Positions 9,833 to 60,536 of a stretch of DNA of 64,000 nucleotides are shown here, one piece after another. The DNA is from Eledone cirrhosa (taxonomy: Eukaryota): positions 46,748,001 through 46,812,000 of the forward strand of contig OZ024749.1 of assembly GCA_964016885.1 (NCBI GenBank). Reading direction: 5' to 3'. A program made the translations under genes and the position numbers. How positions within the stretch are numbered: position 1 is the first letter of the stretch; each line of letters starts with the position of its first letter. The notes beneath the pieces were generated by a model. It was not told where the DNA came from, did no database searches, and was given only the letters and a program-made list of their open reading frames with translations.

Positions 9833-9990
9833 GGACCTGTTATTTTTATCTAAAGACATTTTTCCAATTCCATTCCGCCCGTCCCCTCAATCTATGTTAT
9901 TTCTCATTCTTTCCTCTGGTGAAAGTCTAACGTCCGAATCCGAAACGTTAAGTCCCTCTTCCTGCTATTGTTATTTCTGTTTACCTTTTA
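9832..9990 (+). mobile_element. (TA)n-flanked repeat with a decayed HHR-like motif
   Basis: CTGGTGA (9916-9922) ... CGAAACGTT (9941-9949); stems poorly preserved; flanked by (TA)n on both sides. Confidence 0.4.
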
Positions 9991-9997
9991 CATATAT

Positions 9998-25737: not shown

Positions 25738-25782
<45 letters not shown>

Positions 25783-25784
<2 letters not shown>

Positions 25785-25965
25785 CGAAGGAAATGTGGTA
25801 AGGAACCATATGGACCATAACGTACCAAAGTACTCAATACTTAGGGTAGTTGAGTGGGTAATAGGATCGAGTAGGACCCAGAATCAGAGCTCAAGCCGTT
25901 TCGACGGCTAATTCTGGACTAGCCGTCGAAACGGCTTGAGCTCAGCCGTCGGGGTCCTACTCGTT

Positions 25966-25970
<5 letters not shown>
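25783..25970 (-). mobile_element. Fold-back half-hammerhead element (family P), copy 1
   Basis: Palindrome 25861-25970 containing GAAAC-GGCT-tgagctc-AGCC-GTC (25928-25950); ~80-bp unique tail 25783-25860 shared with the other three copies; (TA)n flanks. Confidence 0.88.
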
Positions 25971-38231: not shown

Positions 38232-38895
38232 TTTCTCTTGACCACTATCTTTCCCTTGTCATAACATTCTCTATAAAGGCTACAGAATAGATTTCCAAAT
38301 AAGGGAGCGAAAATCTAGTGAAAACTTGTTCACGTGACAGCCAAATTTCTTTTATAACCAATCAAATCACGTTTATTAAAAAAAATCCTTCGTGAGCCAC
38401 CTTTTTTTAAAGTAAATCAATTCAAACTCACACACACACACACACACACAAGCACACAAATAAACATACATATCTTGACCTTCTTTATTCAATAGAAAAT
38501 CTGAATTCTGACGCCCCAGCGAACTAACCATATTCACTGAACCAGAACAATTCTCCCATCCCTTTCTCTTGACCATTATCTTTCACTTATCAAATCCCGA
38601 GTTCACTGAGTTCAAATCCCGCCGAGGTTAACTTTGCCTTTCATCCTTACGGGGTCGATAAAATAAAGTACCAGTAATACACTTGGTAATTGCTGGCCTT
38701 GTGCCTAACGTAGAAACAATTATCTTTCACTTATCATAACATTCTCTAAAAAGGCTACAGAGTGGATTTCCAAATAAGGGCACGCAAATTTAATGAAAAC
38801 TTGTTCACGTGACAGGATAATTTCATTTATAACCAACCCCCCAAAAAAGCCTTCGTGAGCCTCTTTTTTCAAGTAAAAAGAAATTCAAATACTCA
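38232..38895 (+). repeat. Diverged ~200-bp direct duplication; second copy interrupted by a SINE
   Basis: 38232-38430 aligns to 38563-38592 plus 38737-38895 (shared gaaaacttgttcacgtgacag and ccttcgtgagcc). Confidence 0.9.
38593..38718 (+). mobile_element. 5'-truncated SINE family A
   Basis: Perfect 18-bp TSD attatctttcacttatca at 38575-38592 and 38719-38736. Confidence 0.95.
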
Positions 38896-39075
38896 TATAT
38901 GAAAAAACAACATGTGACAAACCCCCCCTCTCATTTGAAGAACTATTGTAACGCGAACTGGCGCGAAATTTATTATAATTATTGACAAACCAATCAAATT
39001 ACTTCTCGAAAAACCTGGCATTTCGAGCCACTTTTTCCATATAAAACAAGTAACATTCAGAGACCAACCAGATGC

Positions 39076-39216
39076 GAGAAAAACCACAGACCCTCCATCT
39101 CAACTCACCTTTTGAAAAGCAAAAGAACTGCGAAACCGGTAAAGGAACCAAATAAATATATATATTTAAAAAAAATATAAGACTCCTGTTGCATTTTCGA
39201 TTCCATCTCTTTTTCT
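39076..39216 (+). mobile_element. HHR-bearing repeat (family Q), copy 1
   Basis: About 140 bp of clear similarity to 59427-59570; AATAAA at 39151-39156. Confidence 0.85.
39108..39145 (+). ncRNA. Minimal hammerhead motif with U3-A8 core variant
   Basis: cctt-TTGAAAA-gca-aaagaac-tgc-GAAAC-cg-GTA-aagg; stem I cctt/aagg, stem II gca/tgc, palindromic stem III ACCGGT, GUA site. Confidence 0.65.
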
Positions 39217-39282
39217 TTATACTTTCACTCGTGTAGGACACCTCGGTTATTTTTCAATTTGTAAAAAAAACCTCACTTTCTA

Positions 39283-39334
<52 letters not shown>

Positions 39335-39337
<3 letters not shown>

Positions 39338-39546
39338 CGAGTAAGACCCCGACGGCTAATTCTGGACTAGAATAATTCTAGCTCTGGATTGCTAATAATA
39401 GTTACCTAGTCCAGAATTAGCCGTCGAAACAGCTTGAGTTCAGCCGTCGGGGTCCTACTCGTTCCTATACTCACTCTACTACCCTAAGCATTGAGTACTT
39501 TGCGGAGTTATGGTCCATCTGGTTCCTTACCACATTTCCTTCGTTA
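39335..39546 (+). mobile_element. Fold-back half-hammerhead element (family P), copy 2, with a loop matching nearby DNA
   Basis: Nested inverted repeats gaacgagtaagacccc/ggggtcctactcgttc and gacggctaattctggactag/ctagtccagaattagccgtc; shared family tail; (TA)n flanks. Confidence 0.88.
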
Positions 39547-39567
39547 TATATATATATATATATATAT

Positions 39568-39786
39568 ACCGCCATCAATCGACTTTCGTCAAAGCAGACC
39601 GAGGAGACAATGTTTCCATTCGTTTTTCCAATTGCTAATACTATCTATCGGTAGAAACTCCATGTAGAAGTAACAATGTGAAATAAAGTGTCTTGCTCAA
39701 GGACATAACGCATCGCCCTGTCCAGGAATCGAACTTACAACCCCACTATTGTGAATCCAATTTTCTAATCACTCAGCCACGCGCCT
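39568..39786 (-). mobile_element. Second tRNA-derived SINE family (CORE/V-like domain)
   Basis: Minus strand: ggcgcgtggctgagtgattag (A-box) ... gttcgattcc (B-box) ... tgtccttgagcaagacacttt; (TA)n on both sides. Confidence 0.8.
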
Positions 39787-40468
39787 ATATATATATATAG
39801 GTGACTATAGCCATAATCGTGTCTTTATTTTGCATCTTGTCGGCGCAGCGATAGTTGAAATGATACATTTCTCGTTTGTAATATTGAATTACATAACAAC
39901 ATGGAATTTTATTCATTGTAAAACAAACTTCAAAATAATTATACGGACAAAGAAAAATAAATATTAAGATGACAATATAAGTTACAATCTACGTAAACAG
40001 AAATACTGGTCTAGTTGTTAATTAATTTATAAATATATATATTAACTAAAACCGATTTTAATATGCTAATATTCTAACGTTATATAATTTCAGTTGCAAT
40101 GTGTAAACAGAGATAGAAATACAACACTTCGGAACCCTTAGATACCATGATGTTGTAAACATCAAATGGAGAATAATGTCTTCAAAACGTAAGACAAATA
40201 TTATGTGTAATTAGATTTGTACGAAATAATGCAGCAGTGAGAATTAAATTAATTAAATCTGTTTTCTCTATGAATATCTGAGATTTGAAACAAACGTTGT
40301 ATGCATATTGATTTGTTATAATAAATTTTGATATTTCCAATTCCGATTTTTCCTTTGTTACCTCATGAGCAACTAAAGTTACGGGATCAGAAGATTTACG
40401 TGTTATGCATATAACATTCAAAACCACATGATTTTATAGTCAATGATGCAAAGACAAAAGCAAATAAT

Positions 40469-40645
40469 TGTTTCTACTTTAGACACAATGCCAGCAATTA
40501 CCCAGTGCATTACTGGTACTTTATGTTATCGAACCCATAAGGATGAAAGGCAAAGTCAACCTCGGCGGGATTTGAACTCAGATCGTAAAGGGACGTAACT
40601 ATGCTGGAAAGCATGGCGTCCGACCCTCTACCGATACTGCCAATC
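40469..40645 (-). mobile_element. Near-full-length SINE family A
   Basis: 20-bp TSD caaaga(c/t)aaaagcaaataat at 40449-40468 and 40646-40665. Confidence 0.95.
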
Positions 40646-41333
40646 CAAAGATAAAAGCAAATAATATAAATGTAACTTACAGAAAATTTGTAACACGAGA
40701 TATACCTTCTGAAATTTACAGAAAACATACTGAGATTAATTAAATTATAGAACATCAGGGAAGCTGTGTATAGTGTGTGCTAGACACTAGGCATGGGACC
40801 AGAGTTGACATGTTATTTGAAGCAAAGTGTTTATTAGTGGGCACGCATCCAATGCGTCGTATCCCTATTCAATATTCTTAGCTGCAAATCTATAAATAAT
40901 GTTCGTATCTGCTTACACAAACAATTAAACACGACTAAATAGATACACATAGACATACACACACTCACATACACACACGCACACATACACACACATAATA
41001 TAAACTTATATATATATATGTGTGTATGTGTGCATGTATGTATATATATATATATATGTTTGTGTGTATATATATATATATAGATATATATACACACACA
41101 AACATATATTAATATATATACATACATGCACACATACACACACACACACATATATATACACCAGGATTTTTTCATTCTGATGATTGAAAGCAAACCTTTT
41201 TTGCTTATTGTGGGTTACAATTGTTTCAGATGCATGATTAATTTTTCGTTTTCTATTCTATCATACTCTGCTCTGTAAGAGCATAGAGTATTCGACCGGC
41301 ATACCACATATGGAAGCATCTTCACAACCATCA

Positions 41334-41660
<327 letters not shown>

Positions 41661-43899
41661 ATAAATAGGTAGATATGTAGATAGAATACGCTCTCAGGCG
41701 TCGCACACACTCTTATTCACATTCTATATCATAATAGAAAGATTTCGCTCAGGAACTGACGTCTATAAAAGAAATATGGAAAATTCATTTCCTTTGTTCT
41801 GCAAATATCTTTACAATTTTATTAAATCCCCATTTATGTTGGAGGAGCATTAAACATAGTGATGATCTGAATTTACATGTTTACAACGAATTTTAAATAA
41901 TGCGATTGATTCTCTCTTTCGAATTGCGTCAGAATAATTCTAGCTCTGAATTGCTAATAATAGTTACCTCGTTAACAGTATTCAAAAGTGAATTAATATA
42001 TAATTTGGCATCACTTGCCTCATAATTATAAATATCATTTGAAGTGCCGAGATAAAAGCCGTGGCAAATTCCCAATAAACATTGGCTTCCTAATTAGTTT
42101 TATATTTTGCCATCTATTCCTTCAGGAAATAATTCCATAAATATTCGGATATAAAGATTTGGAGATTGCTGCAGTAATTATCACATAATTCCAAGTAATT
42201 TCTTCAAGAGAAACAAAGCTATATACTAAATGTGTGTAAATATGTATTTCAATGAAATTTCGAAGTATTATCTAATTTTATCTGAATTATTTATTTGAAA
42301 TTACAGATTTCAACCAGAAGCACAAGAACAAAACTATCTTGTAGATAAATGTTATTTTTATGAATTATCTGCGTACTTTTCAATAAAGTATTGCGTCGTG
42401 TGACGATTGTATATACTCACAAGAGCAGAACATTACGTAGGAGTTTTATGAAAATTATGGAGTTTTAAAAGTATATTATATACAGATTCTGACAGTCTGG
42501 ATATTATTGAGTTGCTGCAAGAGAGGAGATACATTTCGACATTACATCCTGAAACAACAATAGATATAATCAATATATTATATATATATATATAATATAT
42601 TTATATATATATATATATATATATACATTTCAAAGACAGATATGGACAACAATACCTCGCAGGTCAGAGAGCAGCATCCACTGGTAGGCAGGGAGACAAT
42701 CCTCTAGTTCTAAAATTGGTCTTGTGGTTGCAGTTGCTTGTATTAACATTGTTATCATTATCATCATCATCATCAGCAGCAGCAGCAGTAGCAGCATTAT
42801 TACTAATAAACATATTATAATTTATCTTAACAATGCGCGCTTCCAATTTGCAGCATGAGTTTGTCATTTTGTGTATATAAACTAAATATATTTTTGTAGT
42901 TTTAAAATTTGTGTTTTTGAGTTTGAGTGCTAGGTTTGAACGTCTATCTTCTTTTTCACCGCTTACCAAATATACATTAATTGTATGACATTATTCGATG
43001 TATTAATGATATATTAATTTCTATTCGTGTATTAAACACCTTGCGTATAATTAATTATTTTCCCCAATACAGGCATCATATTACACGCTTATTTAACAGC
43101 AATGTAATTTCATATATGAATAATCTCAGCAAATCTCAACAAATCGTTGACAAACCTATTTTTATTTGACATACATGTGTATGAATAATATACAAACATG
43201 CATGGATACACGTTTATTGTGGGAAGAATGTGATTGTTTAGGAAAAATAATCCACTGATAAGAATAACACACCTGTTATTTCGGATGTGATAAAAAGGTG
43301 TCAGAAGGAATATAGCTCGACTTTTGAATGCTACGATTGTTATGGATTTTCAAAGATAGCTGGACTATATATTGTTCTGTTTTATCTGTGGAGTGGCATT
43401 CACATTAAATCTAAAATATTATTTCTAAGAAATAACGTTTGTGCTTCTATGAGAAAACGCACATATTGATTCGTTTACTTTAACTTTGAATACGAAAACT
43501 TATCTTTCATACGACTGTCAGTAACACATGTCTGTTTAGATAATTTCGAACCAGGAACTGTTGATATTTTTCCGCAAATATATTGAATTCTTTTACTAGA
43601 GTTGTTAAAGAAACAGAGACAATTATCCAAGAGCAGAATTTGCACAGGATTTGCCTGCTAAGCAGAAACTGAAGGATTTTAAAATAGAATTTACCATGTG
43701 CAAAAATACGTCGTAAATGTTGTAATCGGAACTGGCTTATAATAACCGACTCATTATTTATACCATGAAATCCTAAATTTAGCAGTGAAATGTACGGTAT
43801 TATTCGTGGAAACAATAAGTCAAATAGTGTTAAAAATCACTGTTTTTTCTTTCATAATTGCATGCGTACACACACAAACAGACACAACACTCACGCACG

Positions 43900-51240: not shown

Positions 51241-51977
51241 CCCTCTAGATTTCCTCTAGTTACCATGATATTCACACGTTCGATTTAATCATCGATTACA
51301 TCGATCTAACATGTCTGGTTCAACATAAAATGTGTATAGTTATACTTGACAATTTTATGGACAATAAAAAAAAGAAAATCTATAGTTTCTAGTCAGTAAA
51401 TCTAATTAATTGACGTTTATTTCAAATTTCATATTGCATTAAACATTTTATTTCATAGCATAGATTGCAATAAAATACATTTTTCTTTTTCTACAAGGTG
51501 TTATTACTCCATATTTTCTCATTAATTATATTTCTTTAAAAACAGTAGATATTCATCTGAAATTGGGAAAATTGCATCTGTTAAATCGTCATCCGGTATA
51601 CAGAAACAAGAAAAGCGAAACAAAAAAATTCAAGAAGTATAAAACAAAATCAAGATCTAACGAGACGCCTGAAAGCAATGTTCATGATTAAGACACATGT
51701 GGTGGCTTATTAAAATTGGAACTGTACCATCTGTTTGATTTAAAATTAACTTAAAATTAGACTTGTTGGCAACGTGTGTAAATATGGACTTTTCTCTGGA
51801 TATATCACTCTCGTATTCTCTCTCACTTCAAGTTCAAATACTAACACCCACATACATGCATACACATAGACAAGTACATACACGTATACCACTCTGTGAG
51901 AGAATGGAGAGTGACAGGTCTGATATACCCCAGTTCTAACCACTTTTCAAATCGTGACCTTTTAAATTATATATATA

Positions 51978-52150
51978 TAGGAAACATTCTGACCCCGACG
52001 GCAGAGCTCAAGCCGTTTCGACGGCTATTTCTGAGTCCAGAATTAGCCGCCGGGGTCATACTTTTTCCTATTCCCCACTCTGCTACTCTAAGTATTGAGT
52101 AATCTGGTGCGTTATGGTCCATCTGGTTCCTTACCACAATTCCTTTGTTA
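51978..52150 (+). mobile_element. Fold-back half-hammerhead element (family P), copy 3
   Basis: taggaaa...gaccccgacggcagagctcaagccgtttcgacggcta...tagccgccggggtca...ttccta, then the shared tail. Confidence 0.85.
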
Positions 52151-60359: not shown

Positions 60360-60362
<3 letters not shown>

Positions 60363-60536
60363 TAAGTAAGACCCCGACGGCTGAGGTCAAGCCGTTTTGA
60401 CGGCTAATTCCGTCGAAACGGCTTCAGCTCAGCCGTCGGGGTCTTACTTACTCCTATTACCCACTCTACTACCCTAAGTATTGAGTACTTTGGTGCATTA
60501 TGGTCCACCTGGTTCCTTACCACTTTTCCCTCGCTA
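60360..60536 (+). mobile_element. Fold-back half-hammerhead element (family P), copy 4
   Basis: Arms gagtaagtaagacccc/ggggtcttacttactc; GAAAC-GGCT...AGCC-GTC at 60415-60437; shared tail; (TA)n flanks. Confidence 0.88.

What the first reader, a model, noticed from the sequence alone, without database searches (positions are those of the whole stretch)
39369..39407. Hairpin loop of family P copy 2 matches nearby genomic DNA (41931-41969)
Seen: agaataattctagctctggattgctaataatagttacct (39369-39407) matches agaataattctagctctgaattgctaataatagttacct (41931-41969) at 38 of 39 positions. The second site is ~2.5 kb downstream in otherwise unrelated sequence, and the other three P copies lack this loop. 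The junctions overlap the arms by 2-nt microhomologies (ag, ct). Inference: a templated insertion of local DNA at the palindrome apex, by RT template jumping or polymerase-theta-type repair of a cruciform break. The result is a variable 'spacer' between conserved inverted arms.
Basis: partly seen in the sequence, partly recalled or inferred. Interest (0 to 1): 0.7.

Follow-up and report, generated by a model that had tools for sequence, protein, structure and literature searches.

The report
Retrotransposon junctions copy nearby DNA
The centre of this hairpin-shaped stub of a Penelope-like jumping gene holds a 39-base copy of single-copy DNA lying 2.5 kb away, and fifteen other stubs in the same genome hold copies from 0.25-3 kb away, likely scars of the repair step that joined the two halves during insertion, reaching much farther than such scars usually do.

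Summary
The loop (39369-39407) matches 41931-41969 at 38/39, and its core occurs only at these two sites in the 3-Gb genome. The donor lies unbroken, with no difference in the 39-mer, in a contig of a second species label, so copying ran donor to loop. Family P is the inverted end (pLTR plus 77-bp tail) of a Hydra-clade Penelope-like element. About 15,000 hairpins have hypervariable centres that mark the head-to-head joint of two 5'-truncated copies. Of 29 hand-picked long centres, 16 matched their own +/-5 kb flank, against 3 of 812 wrong-locus pairs. Donors lie 247-3015 bp away (median about 0.7 kb), on both sides and both strands. Best reading: a templated insertion made while the two cDNA ends were joined (polymerase-theta-type repair or the element's own RT, untested). 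Later cruciform breakage is the main rival. Such inserts are known for L1 and for theta repair, but from templates within about 15-20 bp; the kb reach at Penelope joints was not found in print. It is a rare scar, not a CRISPR-like spacer system.

The parts
39283..39334 (.). (TA)n tract on the left, the likely target site
   Evidence: the unselected copies are likewise flanked by TA
39335..39369 (-). Inverted, 5'-truncated pLTR arm starting at the CCTAT end point; lacks a 24-nt inner hairpin (deletion between two GACGGCT words)
39369..39407 (+). Templated insert at the head-to-head joint (37 foreign bases plus 1-nt overlaps with the arms); one substitution, G39387, arisen in the copy
39407..39468 (+). 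Sense pLTR arm (3' part of a hammerhead-like motif: GAAAC, a small stem, GTC, GGGGTC)
39469..39546 (+). One-sided 'tail' of about 77 bp, which in a longer copy runs on into the start of the element's coding region
   Evidence: L106
39545..39569 (.). (TA)n tract on the right
41931..41969 (+). Donor: single-copy, ancestral genomic DNA 2.5 kb to the right, with no element arms beside it
25782..25970 (-). Family P copy 1 (short centre, no foreign insert)
51976..52150 (+). Family P copy 3 (short centre; ends approximate)
60360..60535 (+). Family P copy 4 (short centre; ends approximate)

Best explanation
The 39-base loop is a copy of single-copy DNA 2.5 kb away, placed at the head-to-head joint of two shortened copies of a Penelope-like retroelement end, and it was likely made during insertion, when a free DNA end briefly copied nearby exposed DNA before the two halves were joined. 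Steps: (1, shown) family P is the pLTR and tail of a Hydra-clade element with RT and C-terminal GIY-YIG. (2, inferred, fits PMC11167929) the endonuclease cuts (TA)n, and both DNA ends are extended from two fixed start points on RNA of one source element, giving an inverted arm and a tail-bearing arm. (3, shown) both arms usually end within about 25 nt of one another, and the centres differ from copy to copy. (4, shown) in a small share of copies the centre carries 23-87 bases copied from 0.25-3 kb away, on either side and either strand. (5, inferred) the template is DNA laid bare by resection around the open break, and the copier is a polymerase-theta-type end-joining enzyme (my split about 55%) or the element's RT (about 35%); neither was tested.
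For: Match and uniqueness. The donor is ancestral and unbroken in organism A, all four runs read A at 41949, and a second haplotype differs at 41932 and 41942, where the loop keeps the ancestral bases. 16 of 29 long centres match their own flank by a fixed rule, against 3 of 812 wrong-locus pairs; 14 of 27 without the focal copy and the one seen beforehand. Donors: 8 left and 8 right, 9 direct and 7 inverted, 247-3015 bp, median 724; a similar even use of foldback and cross-junction templates is reported for theta repair (PMC11541566, passages). L091 holds two overlapping pieces of one donor, as from repeated priming. RT and GIY-YIG frames lie upstream in sense with Hydra motifs RWR, DKT, YRDD, CxCX5C, CxxC and CxH. 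In L104, L107 and L069 the inverted arm holds about 450, 1080 and 480 bases the tail arm lacks, while only the tail arm has the tail, which needs two separately primed copies. Arms share subfamily letters in 36 of 39 unselected copies (shuffled mean 12.7, maximum 23). Insert-donor and arm-arm differences are alike (14/625 vs 25/879, p=0.51), and copies with 0 arm mismatches (L055, L056, L058) already carry inserts.
Against: No test separates insertion-time joining from a break at the palindrome soon afterwards; the age comparison is weak and biased by local alignment. Perfect palindromes with arms over 120 bp exist (L162, L163) and could break later. None of 19 junctions of long copies showed a local foreign insert, though at the expected rate this has little power. 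Theta templates in human cells peak within 20 bp (PMC11541566) and L1 templates lie within 15 bp (bioRxiv 2024.08.27.596794), so a kb reach is atypical for either enzyme. 13 of 29 picked centres had no clear local donor, and one (L059) matches a tandem array on another chromosome. The apex was not read-confirmed. Candidates were chosen by eye from partial listings.
Confidence: 0.62

Rival explanations
1. The element first inserted as a longer or perfect palindrome. Later it extruded as a cruciform, was cut at the centre and was repaired by end joining, which trimmed the arms and sometimes copied nearby DNA in.
For: Perfect long palindromes centred on a self-complementary 10-mer exist. Arm ends crowd into a zone of about 25 nt (9990 and 4625 short-centre sites against 239, 52 and 28 longer ones), as symmetric trimming would give. 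Centre-break revision of palindromes is a known process in mammalian cells (cited in PMC3300023, passages).
Against: The youngest copies (0 arm mismatches) already have short arms or inserts. Long copies with non-palindromic joints show that joints are made at insertion anyway. Insert-donor divergence is no lower than arm-arm divergence.
Confidence: 0.22
2. The element's RT jumped from its own RNA onto a nascent host transcript made through the locus, copied 25-90 bases and jumped back, so the template was RNA rather than DNA.
For: It would explain the kb reach without long resection. One insert comes from a distant tandem array (L059), which suits an RNA pool. L1 RT is reported to switch between RNAs (PMC11702581, passages).
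Against: Mismatches between insert and donor are of mixed kinds, with no A-to-G editing bias seen by eye. All 16 donors lie within 3 kb although +/-5 kb was searched, tighter than a long transcript requires. No transcript data were examined.
Confidence: 0.12
3. The match is an assembly error, or the 39-mer is a repeat or the family's own loop with a stray fragment at 41931.
For: The apex was not directly confirmed with reads.
Against: Only two sites genome-wide. The two sites differ by one base. The donor is collinear in another species label. Fifteen further loci each match their own, different donor.
Confidence: 0.02

Closest known systems
Inverted-pLTR insertions with a one-sided tail of endonuclease-bearing Penelope-like elements, Hydra clade (PMC8557442, passages and section 11; PMC3846280, parts 1-2 of 5; PMC11167929, parts 1-2 of 4)
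   Same: Inverted 5'-truncated pLTR beside a direct pLTR, tail on one side only, (TA)n targets, pLTR and tail running into the ORF start, Hydra protein motifs.
   Different: The tail is about 77 bp rather than 30-40. The hammerhead core is non-canonical. The parts read do not describe locally templated DNA at the inverted joint; PMC3846280 reports host DNA between pLTRs of 0.9-1.5 kb or whole genes, not short local copies.
Templated insertions in L1 and LINE integrants (bioRxiv 2024.08.27.596794, passages: 22 cases, under 250 bp, within 15 bp of the site; PMC11702581, passages: 3 cases; PMC4760211, passages: extra nucleotides from flanking DNA)
   Same: A short copy of local genomic DNA sits at a retrotransposition joint in a small share of insertions.
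   Different: Here the joint lies between two cDNA ends, in the germ line, and donors lie 0.25-3 kb away. The supplementary figures with L1 template positions were not seen.
Templated insertions of polymerase-theta-mediated end joining (PMC11541566 and PMC10923293, passages)
   Same: Short microhomology, foldback and cross-junction templates used about equally, repeated priming, occasional templates from other molecules.
   Different: Typical templates are under 10 bp and within 20 bp of the break; here they are 23-87 bp and up to 3 kb away. Enzyme dependence is untested.

Membership tests
EN+ Penelope-like element | RT followed by a C-terminal GIY-YIG endonuclease, linked in sense to the terminal repeat | tested here: met
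   RT frame (FDIES, YRDD) and GIY-YIG frame upstream of family P in L102-L106, L074, L075, L085, L087; 51 relatives of 717-953 aa at E<=1e-20. Pfam and PDB gave no name, so the call rests on motifs. No intact full-length copy was found.
EN+ Penelope-like element | Inverted 5'-truncated pLTR beside a direct pLTR, with a tail on one side | tested here: met
   40 unselected copies show the layout, with small deviations in a few; kb-long versions in L104 and L107
EN+ Penelope-like element | pLTR and tail overlap the start of the ORF | tested here: met
   In L106 the tail continues into coding sequence of a broken copy
EN+ Penelope-like element | Canonical hammerhead ribozyme in the pLTR | tested here: inconclusive
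   GAAAC, a stem and GTC are present, but 0 of 20 arms have CTGAnGA, and Rfam gave no hammerhead hit in L012 or L001. One subfamily reads TTGAGAA, which would be a U3:A8 variant (recalled, untested).
EN+ Penelope-like element | Target-site duplication or empty site | not testable with these tools
   The target is (TA)n; no contig spans the site
Hydra clade of PLEs | RWK and DKT motifs, CxCX5C linker, no CCHH inside GIY-YIG, CxxC and CxH near the conserved E and N, (TA)n targets | tested here: met
   RWR, DKT, CNCLDGSIC, a single C inside the GIY-YIG core, CNLC and CKH against section 11 of PMC8557442; no tree was built
Templated insertion (general) | Insert copied from a retained local template, beyond chance, with the template the older sequence | tested here: met
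Polymerase-theta-mediated end joining | Dependence on polymerase theta | not testable with these tools
   Needs a knock-out or inhibitor in a transposition assay
Polymerase-theta-mediated end joining | Templates mostly within about 20 bp of the break | tested here: inconclusive
   Foreign inserts come from 247-3015 bp, but by definition they lie outside the element; many other centres are copied from the arms or tail themselves, so the 16 may be the far end of a mostly near distribution
Polymerase-theta-mediated end joining | 2-3 nt priming and resolving microhomology | tested here: inconclusive
   1 nt per side at the focal joint against the family sequence; other joints show 0-4 nt or extra bases, judged by eye
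CRISPR-like spacer acquisition | Array of repeats with acquired foreign spacers | tested here: not met
   Copies are single and dispersed, inserts come from the host's own neighbouring DNA, and most centres have none

The most novel reading that the evidence does not exclude
Penelope-type insertion holds a double-strand break open with new cDNA on both ends, long enough that several kilobases of flanking DNA are exposed and searched. The element's telomerase-like RT itself hops onto that DNA and back, so thousands of germ-line joints in one genome form a fossil ruler of how far the break is laid bare and of how PLE cDNA ends are joined, a step no experiment has yet shown.
Probability: 0.25. 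Interest if true: 0.7.

Novelty: new variant of a known kind. Interest (0 to 1): 0.47.

Why it matters
How Penelope-like elements finish insertion is open: the in vitro study says later steps remain to be validated (PMC11167929). The joints give a countable germ-line record of that step, namely template distance, side, strand and repeated priming. If the kb reach holds genome-wide, the intermediate is a long-lived, extensively resected break, unlike L1, whose templates lie within 15 bp. It also shows a route by which these elements make small local duplications. No function of the inserts is implied.

Tried and rejected
Repeat finding on the whole window was swamped by microsatellites. Rfam found no hammerhead. 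Pfam and PDB did not name the RT or endonuclease, and the protein atlas gave no answer. Laying contigs on 38700-40900 was swamped by repeat contigs and did not test the apex. Depth over family P was 0-58 in organism A against about 4-8 x 10^5 in organism B, at most a weak hint that the family spread after the split. Widening to +/-15 kb found no donor for L059 or L062, and only a repeat-level hit for L048, equal to other loci. L052, L065, L089 (short or weak), L064, L092 (low complexity) and L093 (the element itself duplicated 2.2 kb away) were not counted; L066, L067, L094 and L095 had no match. Nineteen junctions of long copies showed no local foreign insert, uninformative at the expected rate. 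A test of which end primed, from microhomology polarity, was dropped as too noisy by eye. My first idea that the arms come from unrelated RNAs of a mixed pool was rejected (36 of 39 concordant, one of the three misses a parsing slip). A MITE reading was rejected because the tail lies outside the inverted arms and the arms continue into an RT frame. Fold-back of a single cDNA is rejected for L104, L107 and L069 but not excluded for short hairpins. Paper searches found no report of kb-range templated inserts at Penelope joints; PMC10962320 was not held, and PMC13580325 and bioRxiv 2026.07.22.740005 (passages) added nothing.

Full report
Observation. The loop at 39369-39407 and the site at 41931-41969 agree at 38 of 39 bases on the same strand. 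Chance expectation in the window is about 1e-15. The window is C9:46748001-46812000 of a 3.0-Gb animal assembly, octopus-like by recall of its repeats. A 26-nt core of the loop, with one mismatch allowed, is found at exactly two places in that genome, both here. The three other copies in the window have short, different centres. The claimed 2-nt overlaps shrink to 1 nt per side against the family sequence, because 21 of 22 long arms read CATT before TAGTCC. The donor begins with CAGAAT, also a word of the arm, and joints of the form GGACT-AGAATT occur in other copies, so a longer priming match through an earlier joined state is possible (inference).

Direction. Contigs from four runs (two samples, two studies) span 41760-42200 without gaps. 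Organism A differs at 15 of 441 bases, none of them inside the 39-mer. A second haplotype of organism B differs at 41932 and 41942, where the loop keeps the ancestral bases, and every run reads A at 41949. So the donor is old single-copy DNA, the loop is the copy, and the one mismatch arose in the copy. X2 may be the source of the assembly. The apex itself was not confirmed, since one search was swamped by repeat contigs.

What family P is. Longer copies continue upstream, in sense, into a GIY-YIG frame and an RT frame. The motifs RWR, DKT, FDIES, YRDD, CxCX5C, CxxC and CxH, and no CCHH in the GIY-YIG core, match the Hydra clade as described in section 11 of PMC8557442. There are 51 relatives of 717-953 aa; Pfam and PDB name none of them. 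Forty unselected copies show (TA)n, an inverted arm ending near CCTAT, a centre, a sense arm, a tail of about 77 bp and (TA)n. This is the known inverted-pLTR-plus-tail layout (PMC8557442 passages; PMC3846280 parts 1-2 of 5). A purified Penelope-type protein cuts and extends both strands, and starts at two RNA sites that bound the tail (PMC11167929 parts 1-2 of 4). Counts of hairpins with exact anchors are 9990 and 4625 with short centres (partly overlapping) and 239, 52 and 28 with longer ones. The listed centres are nearly all different. Many longer ones are the element's own upstream sequence, or short repeats of the arms. In L104, L107 and L069 the inverted arm holds about 450, 1080 and 480 bases that the tail arm lacks, which a single fold-back cannot make. 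Yet arms agree at subfamily letters in 36 of 39 copies, against 12.7 shuffled. I infer two primings on RNA of one source element, joined head to head; arm-to-arm conversion could add to the agreement.

From the listings (50 of 239 sites, 50 of 52, and all sites) I picked by eye 28 centres that looked foreign to the element and fetched +/-5 kb. One of them, L049, was already known to be positive. With the focal copy, 16 of 29 matched their own flank with score at least 22 and at least 5 above any other locus. The same rule passed 3 of 812 wrong-locus pairs. Without the two known cases it is 14 of 27. Matched pieces are 23-87 bp. Donors lie 247-3015 bp away, median 724; 8 are left and 8 right, 9 direct and 7 inverted (for L049 the nearer of two identical donors is counted). 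L091 carries two overlapping pieces of one donor. Thirteen had no clear local donor, and L059 matches a tandem array on C7. Sixteen is a lower bound among about 15,000 hairpins. Donor distances are cut off below by the element's own length, so these may be the far end of a distribution whose bulk is templated from the arms.

Mechanism. Shown: a local copy sits at the joint, repeatedly, with known direction in the focal case. Inferred: it was made while the two cDNA-extended ends were being joined. Insert-donor and arm-arm differences are alike (14/625 and 25/879, p=0.51, 15 loci with L061 left out), and copies with identical arms already carry inserts. All four side-and-strand classes fit copying from single strands exposed by resection (kb-scale resection is recalled knowledge), but they fit other templates too. 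Even use of foldback and cross-junction templates, and repeated priming, resemble theta-mediated joining (PMC11541566 and PMC10923293 passages); the element's RT is the other candidate. The main rival is a later break at the centre of the palindrome: perfect long palindromes exist, arm ends crowd into a narrow zone, and centre-break revision is known (PMC3300023 passages). Nineteen long-copy joints had no local insert, which has little power. An RNA template from a nascent host transcript is a lesser rival. I give about 0.97 to templated copying, 0.9 to the Penelope joint, and 0.62 to the whole insertion-time account.

Comparison and novelty. Templated local DNA at retrotransposon joints is known: 22 L1 cases among about 3,600 solo insertions, under 250 bp and within 15 bp of the site (bioRxiv 2024.08.27.596794 passages; its supplementary figure was not seen); three cases in PMC11702581 (passages); and LINE extra nucleotides (PMC4760211 passages). 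Theta templates peak within 20 bp. Searches found no report of kb-range templates at Penelope joints, but most subscription papers are not searched. An unchecked note from this scan describes one similar filler in another genome (e1-9261780); it is a lead, not support. Verdict: real, a new variant of a known kind, useful as a genome-wide record of an unresolved step in Penelope-type insertion, and not a spacer-acquisition system.

Noticed in passing
G000-wide; Both arms of most hairpins end in a zone of about 25 nt just 5' of CCGTCGAAAC (9990 and 4625 sites, partly overlapping, against 239, 52 and 28 with longer centres), although the two arms start 77 nt apart. This suggests a sequence-specific stop, an RNA 5' end or symmetric trimming. 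Unexplained.
   Followed up: partly
L149, L158, L159, L161, L166, L095: The two arms of one copy often differ by a 4-base in-place inversion just upstream of TAGTCC, even where they share private variants a few bases away (L161). Possibly a template-switch hot spot in hairpins.
   Followed up: partly
L059 (C5:48540617) and C7:29.23-29.26 Mb: This centre matches 36 of 36 bases of a tandem array on another chromosome (172 other sites, mostly C7), so distant templates are also used.
   Followed up: partly
L162, L163 and others: Several young, near-identical perfect palindromes with arms over 120 bp are centred on a self-complementary 10-mer of the element.
   Followed up: partly
L041/L042/L093 (C1:158783481 and 158785673); C3:345711722-345729452; C13:37172554 and 37174425; C4:53920056 and 53938832: Copies with identical centres recur 2-19 kb apart, apparently carried in local duplications.
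   Followed up: no
L049 (C1:262.2 Mb): The donor of this insert is itself present twice, 0.3 kb left (inverted) and 3 kb right (direct), so an inverted duplication flanks the element.
   Followed up: no
L105:6008: A family P arm is joined to what looks like an RT fragment of a different Penelope-like family (read by eye).
   Followed up: no
window 9939-9995: The words TCCGAAACGTT followed by (TA)n resemble the end of another hammerhead-bearing Penelope-like family (recalled resemblance).
   Followed up: no
window 39580-39810 and 40460-40650: Very high-copy short repeats (SINE-like) by contig depth in both species labels.
   Followed up: no
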